A model generated the notes under the pieces. That model saw nothing but the letters and a program-made list of their open reading frames with translations. It made no database searches and was not told the DNA's origin. Below are positions 1-63,673 of a stretch of 63,673 nt of DNA, one piece after another (position 1 is the first letter of the stretch; each line of letters begins with the position of its first letter). The stretch comes from a virus (taxonomy: Duplodnaviria; Caudoviricetes): positions 1 to 63,673 of IMG/VR virus record IMGVR_UViG_3300008261_000064; one strand, 5' to 3'. Made by a program: the position numbers and the translations under genes.

Positions 1-49
1 GTAGAAAGTAGTTTTCCCTGGGGTGGGGGCTGAGTGGCGCGGGGGGAGG
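1..49. repeat. Terminal direct repeat, identical to 63625-63673 (circular assembly overlap)
   Basis: GTAGAAAGTAGTTTTCCCTGGGG...GGGGGGAGG occurs at both window ends. Confidence 0.97.
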
Positions 50-53912: not shown

Positions 53913-54175
53913 AATTGTTGTTTTTAAACTATTCCTGAATATAGATTTGAGAAAAGGTGGTCAGAACAGAAGTTACCCCCTTCCCCCTAAAGGTGAGTAA
54001 CCTCTGACCTATTCCGTCATATGAGTTATCGAATGAGGTAGGCTGTATAGGGATAAAGTTACATCCACGCTATACATTTAACAGTAAGACATAGGAATCT
54101 TTGGTAAGGCTATGTCCTTAAATTCCTTATACTCGGAACTTAGAGAGACAGACGACTGCTTACTAACCAATCCAA

Positions 54176-54272
54176 AACAAAAAACCCACACAGGTCGCAG
54201 CTGTATGGGTTCAATGAAAGAGGGTTCTCTTAAATCAAACCCGAATAAATACTGCGACTATCTAATCGGATT
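54176..54272 (-). ncRNA. Candidate three-hairpin kissing-loop RNA ending in a terminator
   Basis: Loops GTCGCAG and CTGCGAC are complementary; promoter TAGCTTTG at 54280-54287 (-). Confidence 0.6.
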
Positions 54273-61713: not shown

Positions 61714-61902
61714 TCATTTTGTCCCGAATTTGTCCGCACTCTTGACAGATAACTTGAGTTTGAACAGGTTGAATTGAGTTACTGCTTCCTCTTTACCATA
61801 ATAGGCTACGAACTTCTGAAATAAAACCTTGTCTTGGTTGATAGTTGCCTTGATGCGTCTGTGCCTACGGCTGTAGCACAATGTTCCGTTTTTGTTTGTC
61901 AT
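61714..61902 (-). CDS. Small basic protein
   Basis: 62 aa with A-rich start. Confidence 0.5.
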   Translation of the reverse strand: MTNKNGTLCYSRRHRRIKATINQDKVLFQKFVAYYGKEEAVTQFNLFKLKLSVKSADKFGTK

Positions 61903-61943
61903 AATTGTTTTTGTTCAGTTTACGCTGTCCCCCGTTCTTGGTT

Positions 61944-61999
61944 TATGAAATAGGCATAGGGAGGGGAGTCGAACCCCTCCAATAATACCCACGCTATGC
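61944..61999 (-). ncRNA. Mini tRNA-like element B (acceptor stem + T-arm, no anticodon arm)
   Basis: GCATAG-CGTGGGTATTATT-GGAGGGG-TTCGACT-CCCCTCC-CTATGC-CTATTTCATA. Confidence 0.65.
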
Positions 62000-62686
62000 G
62001 AATGAATTAATTGTGTTTCTGTATGTAGCAACATCCCGTTGCCCATAGTTTTTTACTCCCTGCTTTCGCCCAGGAGGGGTATATTACACTACTTGGTAGC
62101 ACAGCGTACCCGTACCCGCTTATATACGTTTACCACAACCCCTTAAAACGTACGAAAATTACATGGGTTTTCCTCGCATACCCCTACCCTCACACAGCCC
62201 GAACTATGTAGGTAGTATGCCCACTTGGTACTAATTGACGTATACGCCACTATGCCCATAGTATGCGAATTACTCGCAAAGGCAATTTGTGTAAACCCCC
62301 ATTTAGCCTAACCAATAGCAACAGCACACTTCGCCCATACCTAATGGGCAGATGGGATAGGAATTAACTTTTCCCCCATAGGTTTACCCCCATACGATAG
62401 GTTGATGAATACTACTGCTTCTCCCCCCATGTCGCATTACGCCCTACATGGGTTTAAGTTAGGCGAATCATTCGGGACCGCCCGTCAATAGTCAATATGT
62501 CAAAGAGTCTAAAGGGATGGTTAAGTACAGGACATCGGGAATTACTCCCAAAGTTCAGCCCCCCGCAGGAATTACTCCGCACTTGGTGGCACACTTCGCC
62601 CCGCACTTGATTTTGTCAGAACAGCCCCTTATTTTTTAGGGCTGCCCCCCATGTTTACGATATTGTAATATCGTCCCTCATTGGGA
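62000..62686 (-). ncRNA. Candidate large structured non-coding RNA
   Basis: No ORF of 60 aa or more; GC-richer than flanks; many local and long-range stems. Confidence 0.6.
62493..62504 (-). promoter_or_regulatory. boxA-like element TTTGACATATTG (copy 2)
   Basis: Exact 12-nt repeat of 63180-63191; resembles the rrn-leader boxA. Confidence 0.65.
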
Positions 62687-62750
62687 TATGAAATAGAAAA
62701 TAGGGGCGGAATTGAACCGCCCTACCTTTAAAGGTATACCATACTATTTT
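62687..62750 (-). ncRNA. Mini tRNA-like element A
   Basis: AAAATAG-TATGGTATACCTTTAAAGGTA-GGGCGG-TTCAATT-CCGCCC-CTATTTT-CTATTTCATA. Confidence 0.65.
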
Positions 62751-63124
62751 TGAGCATAATAACGTCTGATTAACGTCATAACTAACCAAGCAGAAAACCT
62801 GCCGTTTTTTGCTTCTTTGCCTTTCAGCAATGGGAGCAAATTTTTAGGGCTGCAGTCTGTTTCCTTGAAATTTTTGAATGATGAAATGAAACCTTTGTCG
62901 TGTTTTACAACTTGCTTAAGGCAGAAAGATAGTGAGGTATTCTCTTTTTTTACCTCGTTATTCGTGTCAATTTTGGCGTTCTGCAAATTTTTTCCCGTAA
63001 TTCCATCCACAAGGAATGTGAATTTTTCGGTTTTCTTAATTGCTTCGCTGCCTTTCTTTGCGGACATTTTTTCTTGCTTCGCAATTACTTTGTCCATTGT
63101 TGCTGTTTTTGTTGCTGTTTTCAT
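62744..63124 (-). CDS. First early gene, basic 126-aa protein
   Basis: MKTATKTATMDK...LIRRYYAQK; A-rich start; its TAG lies in the 5' strand of tRNA-like element A. Confidence 0.75.
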   Translation of the reverse strand: MKTATKTATMDKVIAKQEKMSAKKGSEAIKKTEKFTFLVDGITGKNLQNAKIDTNNEVKKENTSLSFCLKQVVKHDKGFISSFKNFKETDCSPKNLLPLLKGKEAKNGRFSAWLVMTLIRRYYAQK

Positions 63125-63179
63125 TTTTTTAAATTTTAAATTATGAATGAATGAATAAAAAACAAAGTTGATAATATCC

Positions 63180-63191
63180 CAATATGTCAAA
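63180..63191 (-). promoter_or_regulatory. boxA-like element TTTGACATATTG (copy 1)
   Basis: Located in the leader of the first early gene. Confidence 0.65.
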
Positions 63192-63305
63192 AATCTAACG
63201 ACAAAATTCCCAGTATTACACTGAAATGAAAATTAGCATAGGAGTTACTCCCTTATCTAATTTAGCATTGTTGCCGAATGAAAAGAACTAATTTTAATAA
63301 CAATA

Positions 63306-63313
63306 CAAATATA
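63306..63313 (-). promoter_or_regulatory. Early-arm promoter -7 element TATATTTG
   Basis: TAnnTTTG with an upstream TTTG (-33-like). Confidence 0.75.
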
Positions 63314-63409
63314 AAATTACTTTGCAATTCTGCAAAATTATTTGATGTTTATTTTTCTACAATTTACGAAAACGTTTTCGTGTAAAAAATACACATTGCA
63401 AATAGCATT

Positions 63410-63494
63410 ACTAAAAAGTTTAGCAATTAAATACTAAAAAGTTTAGCTGGGGATAATACTAATTTCTTTAGCAAAGGAAACTAAAGAATTTAGC
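63410..63494. repeat. Four iteron/operator-like repeats ACTAA-N4-TTTAGC
   Basis: Start at 63410, 63433, 63458 and 63480. Confidence 0.85.
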
Positions 63495-63624
63495 GAACGG
63501 GGATTCTTGCCTTCGTGTACTTCTTACACATTAAACACATGATAAATTTTCCTAATGTGAACAATAGTGTAAAAAATACACAATAAACGTATGATAAATT
63601 TTTTTAATATGAGGGTACTCGGTA

Positions 63625-63673
63625 GTAGAAAGTAGTTTTCCCTGGGGTGGGGGCTGAGTGGCGCGGGGGGAGG
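63625..63673. repeat. Terminal direct repeat, identical to 1-49
   Basis: Exact 49-nt match to the window start. Confidence 0.97.

What the first reader, a model, noticed from the sequence alone, without database searches (positions are those of the whole stretch)
62493..63313. Candidate nut-like antitermination system: two 'GTAAY hairpin pair + boxA' sites around a small basic first gene
Seen (- strand): after the promoter (63306-63313) come hairpins GGA-GTAAC-TCC (loop 63244-63248) and CAGT-GTAAT-ACTG (63215-63219), then TTTGACATATTG (63180-63191). Downstream of the 126-aa gene the layout recurs: GGA-GTAAT-TCC (62571-62575), GGGA-GTAAT-TCCC (62541-62545) and the same 12-mer (62493-62504). 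Loop spacing is 29 versus 30 nt. More GTAAT-loop hairpins lie at 62436 and 62269, and terminator-like hairpins interrupt the arm (54180, 48690, 48320). Known: lambda N binds a GNRA-like pentaloop boxB beside boxA, the rrn order is boxB-boxA, and HK022 put uses two hairpins without protein. Inference: this is a Bacteroidota-phage antitermination system, with the 62744-63124 protein as a possible N analogue or RNA partner.
Basis: partly seen in the sequence, partly recalled or inferred. Interest (0 to 1): 0.8.

Follow-up and report, generated by a model that had tools for sequence, protein, structure and literature searches.

The report
Phage copy of rRNA antitermination signal
A freshwater phage of Bacteroidota carries, at the start of its early genes, two copies of the same short RNA signal (boxA) that its hosts use in their ribosomal RNA operons, each preceded by a pair of conserved hairpins, probably to keep the host polymerase transcribing through a terminator and a long non-coding RNA.

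Summary
On the minus strand there are two "two GTAAY-loop hairpins + TTTGACATATTG" sites (63178-63260 and 62491-62587), around a 126-aa basic gene.

The 12-mer is the Bacteroidota rRNA-operon boxA. An exact 15-mer scan of bacterial genomes put it in 16S-23S spacers and 16S leaders, and Rfam confirmed this on four loci.

The module recurs in related phages. The loops stay G-N-A-A-Y while the stems change by compensatory substitutions. A covariance model of it finds only these two sites in the window, and none in 56 unrelated viral loci.

A leader boxA is present exactly where an intrinsic terminator follows gene 1: 8 of 8 loci with it, 0 of 7 without.

The second site heads an ORF-free, structured RNA region of about 840 nt that ends in a tRNA-like minihelix and has no Rfam match.

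Best reading: host Nus-factor (rrn-type) processive antitermination borrowed by the phage. The hairpin-then-boxA order is that of rrn, not lambda.

The "N analogue" role of gene 1 is untested. Gene 1 belongs to an uncharacterised lysine-rich family with no arginine-rich motif, and it always lies next to the non-coding RNA.

Nothing was measured, and no RNA data exist. I rate it a new variant of a known kind.

The parts
63306..63313 (-). Promoter-like -7 element TATATTTG of the early (minus-strand) arm
   Evidence: Sequence. Overlaps the sigma-70-like hit at 63336-63308. Equivalent TA..TTTG-like elements are seen by eye in relatives. The Bacteroidota consensus is recalled, not tested.
63240..63252 (-). 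Leader hairpin 1, GGGA-GTAAC-TCCT (loop 63244-63248)
   Evidence: The orthologue in L193 keeps the GTAAC loop on a different stem, AAAATAA/TTATTTT.
63208..63226 (-). Leader hairpin 2, TTTCAGT-GTAAT-ACTGGGA (loop 63215-63219)
   Evidence: The L193 orthologue is ATAGT-GTAAT-ACTAT.
63179..63195 (-). boxA copy 1 (leader), GATTTTTGACATATTGG; 12-mer core at 63180-63191, 56 nt before the gene 1 ATG
   Evidence: Matches the Bacteroidota rrn boxA. Leaders of 7 related loci carry the same element with up to 1 mismatch.
62744..63124 (-). Gene 1: 126-aa lysine-rich basic protein (P0001) of an uncharacterised family
62694..62722 (-). Intrinsic-terminator-like hairpin GGGCGG-TTCAATT-CCGCCC plus a U-rich tail, 22 nt after the gene 1 stop; the loop is T-loop-like
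   Evidence: Conserved in position, with covarying stems, in L193, L202/206/207, L209/210 and L211.
62568..62578 (-). Downstream hairpin 3, GGA-GTAAT-TCC (loop 62571-62575)
   Evidence: L193 has CGGA-GTAAT-TCCG.
62535..62551 (-). Downstream hairpin 4, TTGGGA-GTAAT-TCCCGA (loop 62541-62545)
62492..62508 (-). boxA copy 2, ACTCTTTGACATATTGA; 12-mer core at 62493-62504; heads the non-coding RNA region
   Evidence: An identical CTCTTTGACATATTG lies at the same place in L193. boxA-like elements lie 153-243 nt after the gene 1 stop in L209/210, L211 and L195-200.
62426..62452 (-). Nested hairpin with a GTAAT loop (62436-62440): outer stem CCCATGT/ACATGGG, inner stem GC/GC
   Evidence: The L193 orthologue has outer stem CTCATA/TATGAG and loop GAAAT (read by eye).
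62264..62278 (-). Hairpin 5, TGCGA-GTAAT-TCGCA (loop 62269-62273), inside the non-coding RNA
   Evidence: The L193 orthologue is CTTACAA-GTAAT-TTGTAAG.
61903..62743 (-). ORF-free, G+C-richer, structured RNA region between gene 1 and the next gene (ATG at 61902)
   Evidence: (fold z = -2.4). No tRNA and no Rfam match. Aligned with five relatives.
61933..62228 (-). Conserved 3' domain of the non-coding RNA
   Evidence: 77 predicted pairs, 13 with compensatory changes among 6 sequences. Also found in L193 by nhmmer. About 3% divergence in close relatives against about 10% in gene 1.
61954..61999 (-). tRNA-like minihelix at the 3' end of the RNA: 6-bp acceptor-like stem GCATAG/CTATGC, a 13-nt insert, and a 7-bp arm with T-loop TTCGACT
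   Evidence: The stems covary in L009 (GTATAG/CTATAC) and L211 (GCGTAG/CTACGC) (by eye). nhmmer finds this part in L211. ARAGORN calls no tRNA.
54172..54212 (-). Strong intrinsic-terminator-like hairpin inside the early arm

Best explanation
The two sites are rrn-type antiterminator modules that the phage has copied in function from its Bacteroidota host.

Proposed mechanism: transcription starts at the early promoter near 63306. When the nascent RNA shows boxA, the host NusB-S10(NusE) pair binds it and, with NusG and NusA, converts RNA polymerase into a termination-resistant form, as on ribosomal RNA operons.

The modified polymerase would then read through three obstacles: the intrinsic terminator right after gene 1 (62722-62694), the roughly 840 nt of untranslated structured RNA, which would otherwise be exposed to Rho, and probably later terminators such as the one at 54.2 kb. 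The second boxA, at the head of the non-coding RNA, would reload or reinforce the complex, as the spacer boxA does before 23S rRNA.

The paired G-N-A-A-Y pentaloop hairpins 5' of each boxA are phage-specific RNA elements. They sit where rrn boxB sits and are most likely bound by a protein. Gene 1's basic product is the obvious but unproven candidate; NusA or an RNA-RNA contact are alternatives.

Shown here:
- the identity of the 12-mer with rrn boxA;
- the conservation, strand bias and covariation of the hairpins;
- the association of a leader boxA with a terminator;
- the structured RNA downstream.

Inferred only: Nus binding, read-through, and any role for gene 1.
For: - 17 matches lie 367-813 nt after a 16S 3'-end motif on the same strand.
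   - 2 lie 70-180 nt before the 16S 5' end.
   - 31 of 121 are preceded by AG, against 1 in 16 expected.

2. Rfam placed the element between the spacer tRNAs and 23S in L093 and L106, after the spacer tRNAs of L095, and 174 nt before 16S in L158.

3. 26 of 301 sampled Bacteroidota genomes hold the exact 16-mer (36 matches). The reversed control pattern gave 2 matches.

4. The first seven bases fit the gamma-proteobacterial boxA consensus GYTCTTTAANA given in PMC5725501 (passages read).

5. The module is conserved.
   - In 19 gene 1 loci (29.5 kb), G-N-A-A-Y pentaloop hairpins number 40 on the sense strand and 6 on the antisense strand.
   - GCAAT, GAAAT and GTAAT are the three commonest of 471 sense pentaloop hairpins.

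6. In an alignment of 10 modules:
   - 83.3% of cells pair, against 31-50% with slid partners;
   - 9 of 12 pairs show double changes;
   - 0 of 500 shuffles reach the observed score.

7. The covariance model R1 finds only the two reported sites in the window. It finds untrained sites in the leaders of L064, L042 and L063 (E 0.002-0.004). In 57 other viral loci (505 kb) it finds nothing except in L056, which is the same contig as L193.

8. All 8 loci with a leader boxA (up to 2 mismatches, within 100 nt of the ATG) have a hairpin plus U-tract within 110 nt after the gene 1 stop. None of the 7 loci L195-L201, which lack a leader boxA, has one.

9. boxA always precedes the long ORF-free stretch, whether that stretch lies after gene 1 (15 of 20 loci) or before it (5 of 20).

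10. L005-L007, which are related phages in the fetched stretches, have no gene 1, no boxA and no module.

11. From the literature: boxA recruits NusB/NusE and gives Rho-resistant complexes, and Bacteroidota have Rho (passages of PMC12360218; PMC3177189).
Against: - No expression or binding data exist. No RNA run holds the stretch.
- boxA function has not been shown in Bacteroidota in anything my searches found.
- The window's two copies differ from the rrn 17-mer at 2 and 3 positions. The leader copy has TTTTT where rrn has TTCTT.
- The 8-versus-7 association rests on only 4 and 3 clades.
- The L042/L063/L064 clade has no second boxA before its non-coding RNA (best match 5-6 mismatches).
- L194, L201 and L203 have gene 1 but no clear boxA.
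- A boxA near a ribosome-binding site can repress instead of antiterminate, as at suhB (PMC5725501, PMC12360218).
- In the window, L002 and L009, the leader copy is followed about 19 nt later by a CTTTG-containing element, so a promoter reading of that copy is not excluded.
- The downstream boxA cannot help with the terminator that lies upstream of it.
Confidence: 0.6

Rival explanations
1. A true lambda-like N/nut system. Gene 1's protein binds the G-N-A-A-Y loops, as N binds boxB, and is required together with boxA and the Nus factors for read-through.
For: - Gene 1 is the first early gene, small and very basic (family median pI 10.0).
- It lies just after a hairpin + boxA site and just before a terminator, as N does in lambda (recalled).
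- Gene 1 homologues and G-N-A-A-Y hairpins are found together in most clades, and both are missing from L005-L007.
- The most divergent gene 1 subfamily (L002/L009) has different loops, TGTCT and TTTCT, before the same boxA (by eye).
Against: - No similarity to any Pfam or PHROG family or to any solved protein.
- The N-terminal tail is Lys/Thr/Ala-rich, with 0 Arg (median) in the first 35 residues, and its sequence is not conserved.
- The element order is the reverse of lambda's.
- L204 and L205 have gene 1 but no convincing G-N-A-A-Y hairpin.
- The loop-versus-subfamily contrast rests on one clade.
Confidence: 0.2
2. The hairpins and boxA serve the non-coding RNA rather than downstream genes, making the locus a miniature 'rrn-like' unit. 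Nus factors loaded at boxA would shield and chaperone the folding of the ~840-nt RNA. The G-N-A-A-Y loops would be tertiary-contact or protein-binding parts of that RNA, which with gene 1's protein would form a particle. The flanking T-loop/tRNA-like hairpins would be processing sites. This overlaps with the best explanation but puts the purpose elsewhere.
For: - boxA always precedes the long ORF-free stretch, and gene 1 is always adjacent to it on one side or the other.
- G-N-A-A-Y hairpins also lie deep inside the RNA, at 62269-62273 and 62436-62440.
- The RNA has compensatory changes in 13 of 77 pairs.
- It is better conserved than gene 1 in close relatives.
- It ends in a tRNA-like minihelix.
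- In L204, L205 and L208, hammerhead-like motifs flank gene 1 (seen by eye); three of the copies, in L204 and L208, were folded.
Against: - No function is known for the RNA, and it has no Rfam match.
- No RNA ends have been mapped.
- The leader module of the window precedes a protein gene, not the RNA.
Confidence: 0.3
3. The boxA copies act negatively or as decoys. Nus binding at the leader boxA would repress gene 1 translation and promote Rho termination, as at suhB. Alternatively, abundant phage boxA RNA would titrate NusB/S10 away from host rRNA synthesis.
For: - The leader boxA lies 56-98 nt before the gene 1 ATG.
- boxA-dependent repression is documented in E. coli and Salmonella (PMC5725501; PMC12360218).
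Against: - This does not explain the second copy ahead of a non-coding RNA.
- It does not explain the association of a leader boxA with a following terminator.
- It does not explain the conserved hairpin pairs.
- The suhB-type sites searched for in the paper lie within 50 bp of the start codon.
Confidence: 0.08
4. These are DNA-level sites (promoter -33 region, operator, origin or packaging signal), or an inert fragment captured from a host rrn spacer.
For: - The 12-mer contains TTTG and TTGACA-like hexamers. The sigma-70-type scan lists TTGACT-17-AATGAT at 62495-62467.
- In the window, L002 and L009, a CTTTG-containing element follows the leader copy by about 19 nt (by eye).
Against: - There is a strong strand bias, 40 sense against 6 antisense.
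- The loops are conserved while the stems covary, which fits RNA.
- The same element sits after the spacer tRNAs and before 23S in many genera.
- Host rrn sites match the module model only over the boxA part, with E 0.1-0.8, so the flanks are not captured rrn sequence.
- The downstream copies have no -7-like element.
Confidence: 0.07

Closest known systems
rrn operon antitermination signals (boxB-boxA-boxC; NusB/NusE/NusG/NusA/SuhB/S4 complex)
   Same: - The boxA sequence is the one found in Bacteroidota 16S leaders and 16S-23S spacers.
- A hairpin comes first and boxA second.
- There are two copies, one in the leader and one ahead of a long untranslated structured RNA.
- tRNA-like elements flank the RNA.
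   Different: - The unit is in a phage early operon and includes a protein gene.
- The hairpins come in pairs about 29 nt apart, with G-N-A-A-Y pentaloops. These were not seen consistently before the host rrn boxA (by eye).
- No boxC was identified.
- Function has not been shown in this phylum.
Lambda N / nut sites (boxA + boxB)
   Same: - A promoter-proximal RNA site combines a host-type boxA with a pentaloop hairpin.
- It lies beside a small basic first gene, with terminators downstream.
- There are two sites per early region.
   Different: - The order of the elements is reversed.
- There are two hairpins per site.
- The loops end in a pyrimidine.
- The protein is Lys-rich, has a conserved domain of about 90 aa, and has no detectable relation to any known family.
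- Both sites are in one operon.
HK022 put RNA (protein-independent antitermination by two hairpins)
   Same: Two adjacent hairpins in the nascent early transcript, close to the promoter. It is possible that no phage protein is needed.
   Different: put works without boxA or Nus factors (recalled), whereas here a host-type boxA is the best conserved part. No sequence or model comparison was possible, because no put model matched in Rfam.
boxA outside rRNA operons (suhB leader and other genes; PMC5725501)
   Same: A host Nus-factor site is re-used in a non-ribosomal transcript.
   Different: Those cases are cellular and mostly repressive. This one is viral, is paired with hairpins, and is associated with terminators and a long non-coding RNA.
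Large phage-borne structured RNAs (GOLLD, ROOL)
   Same: The RNA is about 0.8 kb, phage-encoded, lake-derived and elaborately folded, with a conserved 3' half, a variable 5' half, and tRNA-like neighbours.
   Different: No Rfam family matched, either at gathering score over the whole window or at E up to 5 over 61800-63673. Only 7 phage contigs hold the conserved 3' domain.

Membership tests
rrn-type boxA (NusB/NusE-binding RNA element) | Sequence equal or close to the boxA of the host group's own rRNA operons | tested here: met
   The 12-mer is contained in the element found in 16S-23S spacers (17 matches) and 16S leaders (2 matches) among 121 exact 15-mer matches. Rfam-verified on L093, L106, L095 and L158. 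The window's copies differ from the rrn 17-mer at 2 and 3 positions.
rrn-type boxA (NusB/NusE-binding RNA element) | Lies on the transcribed strand, downstream of a promoter and upstream of what must be read through | tested here: met
   Both copies are on the gene strand. They lie after the promoter-like element and before the terminator or the non-coding RNA. The promoter itself is only predicted.
rrn-type boxA (NusB/NusE-binding RNA element) | Binds NusB-S10 and confers termination resistance | not testable with these tools
   Needs EMSA or ITC and read-through reporters. The only indirect support is the 8-of-8 versus 0-of-7 association with terminators.
Lambda-type nut site with N protein | boxA lies 5' of a single boxB hairpin | tested here: not met
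   Two hairpins lie 5' of boxA at both sites.
Lambda-type nut site with N protein | boxB pentaloop able to adopt a GNRA-like fold (purine at the last loop position, as recalled) | tested here: inconclusive
   The loops are G-N-A-A-Y. The first four bases fit GNRA and the fifth is a pyrimidine. No structure was computed.
Lambda-type nut site with N protein | Antiterminator protein with an N-terminal arginine-rich motif, related to N | tested here: not met
   No Pfam or PHROG hit for gene 1 or for 48 family members. The median first 35 residues hold 8 Lys and 0 Arg.
Known RNA families (Rfam 15), including GOLLD, ROOL, tmRNA, tRNA, group I intron, RNase P | Match to the family covariance model at its gathering score | tested here: not met
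   0 matches in the window and 0 in 12 related loci. The best sub-threshold hit was tmRNA positions 347-363 on the terminator hairpin, E 0.025. ARAGORN found 0 genes.
Hammerhead ribozyme (elements flanking gene 1 in relatives L204, L205, L208) | Three-way junction with the conserved core, and a match to an Rfam hammerhead model | tested here: inconclusive
   The core motifs and a three-stem fold were checked on three copies (both flanks of gene 1 in L204, the downstream one in L208), z about -5; the L205 copies were seen by eye only. No Rfam hit on L204, L205 and L208 at gathering score, nor at E up to 1 on L204 2000-3100.

The most novel reading that the evidence does not exclude
A family of freshwater Bacteroidota phages runs a private 'mini-rrn operon'. 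Host Nus factors, loaded at a copied boxA, would work with a phage-specific partner system: paired G-N-A-A-Y pentaloops read by the lysine-rich gene 1 protein, an N analogue of independent origin. Together they would drive synthesis and folding of a new ~0.8-kb structured RNA with a tRNA-like 3' end. That RNA would be cut out by tRNA-processing enzymes (or, in some relatives, by flanking hammerheads) and would form a particle with the gene 1 protein.
Probability: 0.15. Interest if true: 0.85.

Novelty: new variant of a known kind. Interest (0 to 1): 0.62.

Why it matters
Processive antitermination by boxA and Nus factors is textbook biology for E. coli and the lambdoid phages, but it is almost unexplored in Bacteroidota.

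This locus contributes four things:
- It defines the Bacteroidota rrn boxA by comparative data.
- It shows that phages of this phylum have taken that boxA over.
- It supplies a compact, conserved test system: two hairpins, boxA, a small protein and a terminator.
- It points to two uncharacterised partners, a protein family of about 190 members and a large structured phage RNA.

If confirmed, it would be an independent second invention of a nut-like device. It would also be a handle for building read-through cassettes in Bacteroidota genetics.

Tried and rejected
**Identity of the RNA**
- tRNA or tmRNA: ARAGORN found none.
- Any Rfam family: none at gathering score, and only chance-level hits at E up to 5.
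- GOLLD, ROOL, group I intron and RNase P are therefore not supported.

**Search for relatives**
- The phage collection has no DNA relative of the region.
- Nearest cultured phages by protein infect Flavobacteriaceae: the primase is 35% identical to that of Maribacter phage Panino.
- P0001 alone found no viral locus.
- Pattern scans gave several chance hits, which I discarded after reading them: L010, L062, L065-L069, and most of L011-L061.
- The metagenome scan added nothing new.

**What gene 1 is**
- No Pfam or PHROG match.
- The best solved-structure hit is insignificant (2kj8_A, E 0.95).
- The Atlas gave nothing.

**Expression**
- No RNA holder is listed for the stretch. Laying DNA contigs of four runs gave only variation data.

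**Statistics and other readings**
- The repeated 12-mer taken alone is not beyond chance.
- A promoter reading of the 12-mer is rejected for the downstream copies and is weak for the leader copy.
- A captured rrn fragment is rejected, because host sites match the module model only at boxA.

**Tools and sources not available**
- Structure prediction: off.
- The look-up of encoding contigs: closed, not called.
- Supplements of papers were not opened. The supplementary tables of PMC5725501 may list boxA variants that bear on the consensus.

**Claim of 'not in print'**
This rests on searches only. For those I saw listings and abstracts. I read passages of PMC5725501, PMC3177189 and PMC12360218.
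Full report
**What the window is**

The window is a whole IMG/VR virus record of 63,673 bp with a 49-nt terminal repeat. Plus-strand genes run from about 250 to 43,000. A minus-strand early arm runs from about 63,300 down to 43,600. That arm encodes:
- a RadC-like protein;
- an M42-like peptidase;
- a dNMP kinase;
- a PD-(D/E)XK nuclease;
- a primase-helicase.

The nearest cultured phages by protein similarity infect Flavobacteriaceae. Close DNA variants occur in lake and freshwater metagenomes.

**Checking the observation**

- Six of the 15 minus-strand GTAAY hairpins of the whole window fall within 1.05 kb at the start of the early arm. The plus strand has four in all.
- The exact 12-mer occurs twice and nowhere else, even when 3 mismatches to the 17-mer are allowed. 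A two-fold repeat alone is within chance: 14 of 100 shuffles reach it.
- The hairpin 'at 62436' is a 2-bp stem nested in a 7-bp stem.
- The scan finds minus-strand terminator-like hairpins at 62722-62704, 54212-54182 and 44915-44884.

**What the 12-mer is**

I scanned one genome for each of 185,579 prokaryotic species for the exact 15-mer TTCTTTGAMATATTG.
- A large share are Bacteroidota: Pedobacter, Mucilaginibacter, Sphingobacterium, Chitinophaga, Flavihumibacter, Ferruginibacter, Sediminibacterium, Algoriphagus, Aquirufa and others. Many are on short contigs of rRNA-operon size.
- 17 matches lie 367-813 nt downstream of a 16S 3'-end motif on the same strand.
- 2 matches lie 70-180 nt upstream of the 16S 5' end.
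- 31 of 121 share the preceding AG.

Rfam confirmed the placement.
- In L093 (Pedobacter hartonius) the order is 16S at 510-2031, tRNAs at 2310-2474, the element at 2546-2560, then 23S from 2714.
- L106 has the same order.
- In L095 the element follows the tRNAs of the 16S-23S spacer.
- In L158 the element is 174 nt before 16S.

In 301 sampled Bacteroidota genomes, 26 hold the exact 16-mer (36 matches). The reversed control pattern gave 2 matches. Many of these genomes are incomplete assemblies that may lack rRNA operons.

Leader plus spacer is the classical distribution of boxA. The first seven bases fit the consensus GYTCTTTAANA given for gamma-proteobacteria in PMC5725501. I therefore read the 12-mer as the core of the Bacteroidota rrn boxA.

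In the matches with a clear context, the spacer form has C at the variable position and the leader form has A. Phages L002 and L009 mirror this: A in the leader copy and C in the downstream copy.

**Relatives of the locus**

A neighbouring 438-aa protein and conserved RNA motifs led to six phage contigs that share gene 1 and the downstream RNA: the window, L002, L009, L042, L063 and L064.

A profile of gene 1 found 79 representatives at E up to 0.001 in 1.84 billion proteins, and 191 clusters in the larger collection. All are 'hypothetical' and none has a Pfam domain.

Two further scans gave 17 more gene 1 loci. They include L193, the closest relative, at 74% identity.

**The hairpins**

In the regions from -450 to +700 around gene 1 in 19 loci (29.5 kb), I counted pentaloop hairpins with at least 4 pairs.
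- G-N-A-A-Y loops: 40 on the sense strand, 6 on the antisense strand.
- GCAAT (15), GAAAT (11) and GTAAT (9) are the three commonest of 471 sense hairpins.

The loci are not independent, but the pattern holds in separate clades:
- the window and L193 (GTAAY);
- L195/196/199/200 (GCAAY);
- L197/198 (GAAAT);
- L201 (GCAAT);
- L202/206/207 (GAAAT or GCAAT).

L193 keeps the window's GTAAY hairpins on different stems, for example TGCGA/TCGCA against CTTACAA/TTGTAAG.

MAFFT aligned ten modules. On that alignment:
- 83.3% of cells pair, against 31-50% with slid partners;
- 9 of 12 pairs have changes on both sides;
- 27 cells are compensatory, against 4-10 in the slid controls;
- no shuffle out of 500 reaches the observed covariation score.

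A covariance model of the module behaves as follows.
- In the window it finds only the two reported sites.
- It picks up sites it was not trained on: the leaders of L064, L042 and L063 (E 0.002-0.004), L201 (0.04) and L009 (0.08).
- It matches host rrn sites only weakly, and only over boxA.
- In 57 other viral loci (505 kb) it finds nothing, apart from the two sites of L056, which is the contig of L193.

The module is therefore a real, strand-specific, structured element with sequence-specific loops.

**Link to termination**

Gene 1 is followed within 110 nt by a G+C-rich hairpin and U-tract in all 8 loci with a leader boxA of up to 2 mismatches: the window, L193, L202, L206, L207, L209, L210 and L211. 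These make four clades. None of the 7 loci L195-L201, which lack a leader boxA and make three clades, has such a terminator. The terminator stems covary.

This is the best comparative support for antitermination, though it rests on few independent lineages.

**What follows gene 1**

The 841 nt between gene 1 and the next gene have no ORF of 60 aa on the gene strand, are richer in G+C than their surroundings, and fold better than shuffles (z = -2.4).
- The 3' 300-390 nt are conserved among six phages, with helix-sized insertions. There are 77 predicted pairs, 13 of them with compensatory changes.
- In close relatives from four metagenome runs, the RNA region differs at about 3% of positions and gene 1 at about 10%.
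- The RNA ends in a tRNA-like minihelix: a 6-bp acceptor-like stem, a short insert, and a 7-bp arm with a T-loop. Its stems covary in L009 and L211.

Across 20 loci, gene 1 is always next to a long ORF-free stretch: after it in 15 loci and before it in 5. The boxA-like element, where present, precedes that stretch.

In L204, L205 and L208, gene 1 is flanked on both sides by hammerhead-like motifs (by eye). Three copies, in L204 and L208, fold as three-way junctions (z about -5) but match no Rfam model.

**How it most likely works**

Established knowledge (passages of PMC3177189, PMC5725501 and PMC12360218):
- NusB-S10 binds boxA in the nascent RNA.
- With NusG, NusA and further factors, this makes RNA polymerase resistant to Rho, and in lambda also to intrinsic terminators.
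- Bacteroidota possess Rho.

The phage arrangement is a leader boxA before a terminator and a second boxA before 0.8 kb of untranslated RNA. It fits a borrowed rrn-type antitermination device.

The hairpin pairs are the phage-specific part. They occupy the position of rrn boxB. I did not see such loops consistently before host boxA (by eye).

Whether gene 1's protein reads the loops is open. It is basic (family median pI 10.0), but it is lysine-rich, has no arginine-rich motif, and has a conserved domain of about 90 residues with no known relatives.

The rivals, with their evidence, are in the fields above:
- a true N-like system;
- a device that mainly serves the non-coding RNA;
- negative regulation or a decoy;
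- DNA-level sites.

**Comparison and novelty**

The element works like an rrn or nut antiterminator, and its boxA qualifies as a member of the rrn boxA class by sequence and position. It is not a lambda-type nut site: the order, the hairpin number and the protein all fail the membership test.

My five literature searches found no report of boxA-based antitermination in Bacteroidota phages, nor of this RNA or protein family. I rate it a new variant of a known kind, with an attached RNA and protein that may prove more novel.

**Limits**

- Nothing here is experimental.
- Promoters are predicted only.
- The host is not identified beyond the phylum.
- Lineage counts are small.
- Several comparisons were made by eye and are marked as such.
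- Structure prediction, the earlier-findings tool and paper supplements were not available.

Noticed in passing
window 63377-63612 (upstream of the early promoter): The divergent control region holds three sets of repeats: four copies of an 18-nt repeat (TACTAAAAAGTTTAGC-like, 22-25 nt apart, 63409-63496), three copies of a palindromic GTGTA..TACAC element, and a 36-nt direct repeat. Similar CTACTAA..TTTAGCA repeats are visible in L042 and L064. They are probably operator sites for a phage regulator.
   Followed up: no
L204:2405-2490 and 2889-2966; L208:2778-2860; also L205: Hammerhead-like motifs (conserved core, three stems, a GUC or GUA cleavage triplet) flank the gene 1 homologue on both sides. 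Three copies, in L204 and L208, were folded, with z about -5; the L205 copies were seen by eye only. No Rfam hammerhead model matches L204, L205 or L208 at gathering score, nor L204 2000-3100 at E up to 1. This suggests that the gene 1 mRNA is cut out of a longer transcript.
   Followed up: partly
window 61954-61999 and 62694-62722; repeat D5 at 61938-61975 / 62681-62718: Both ends of the non-coding region carry hairpins with T-loop-like 7-nt loops (TTCGACT, TTCAATT), followed by similar tails (38-nt repeat, 71% identity). The 3' one forms a tRNA-like acceptor/T-arm minihelix. These may be RNase P or RNase Z processing signals. ARAGORN calls no tRNA.
   Followed up: partly
L172:290-331 (bacterial genome G005, contig C16): A boxA with the same extended flank as the window's leader copy (…TTTGACATATTGGGATATTAT…) lies after a tRNA and a terminator-like hairpin, and not next to rRNA genes within the locus. 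It may be a non-ribosomal host use of boxA.
   Followed up: no
window 62062-62065: Close relatives in four freshwater runs carry a 35-nt insertion here. It sits where L002, L009, L042, L063 and L064 have an extra hairpin after the GCGAAAGC loop. The window's RNA therefore lacks one peripheral helix.
   Followed up: partly
L206:4655-4715 and L207:4623-4683: A second copy of the tRNA-like minihelix motif lies about 1 kb further downstream in these relatives (nhmmer E 1e-4).
   Followed up: no
host rrn loci (e.g. L158, L162 against L093, L106): In the matches with a clear context, the boxA before 16S has A at the variable position and the boxA before 23S has C. Phages L002 and L009 show the same leader/downstream split.
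   Followed up: partly
window 1-49 and 63625-63673: A 49-nt direct terminal repeat that is G+C-rich and purine/pyrimidine-skewed. The record is therefore a circularly closed assembly. The early and late arms diverge from one intergenic region of about 800 nt that spans the record ends.
   Followed up: no
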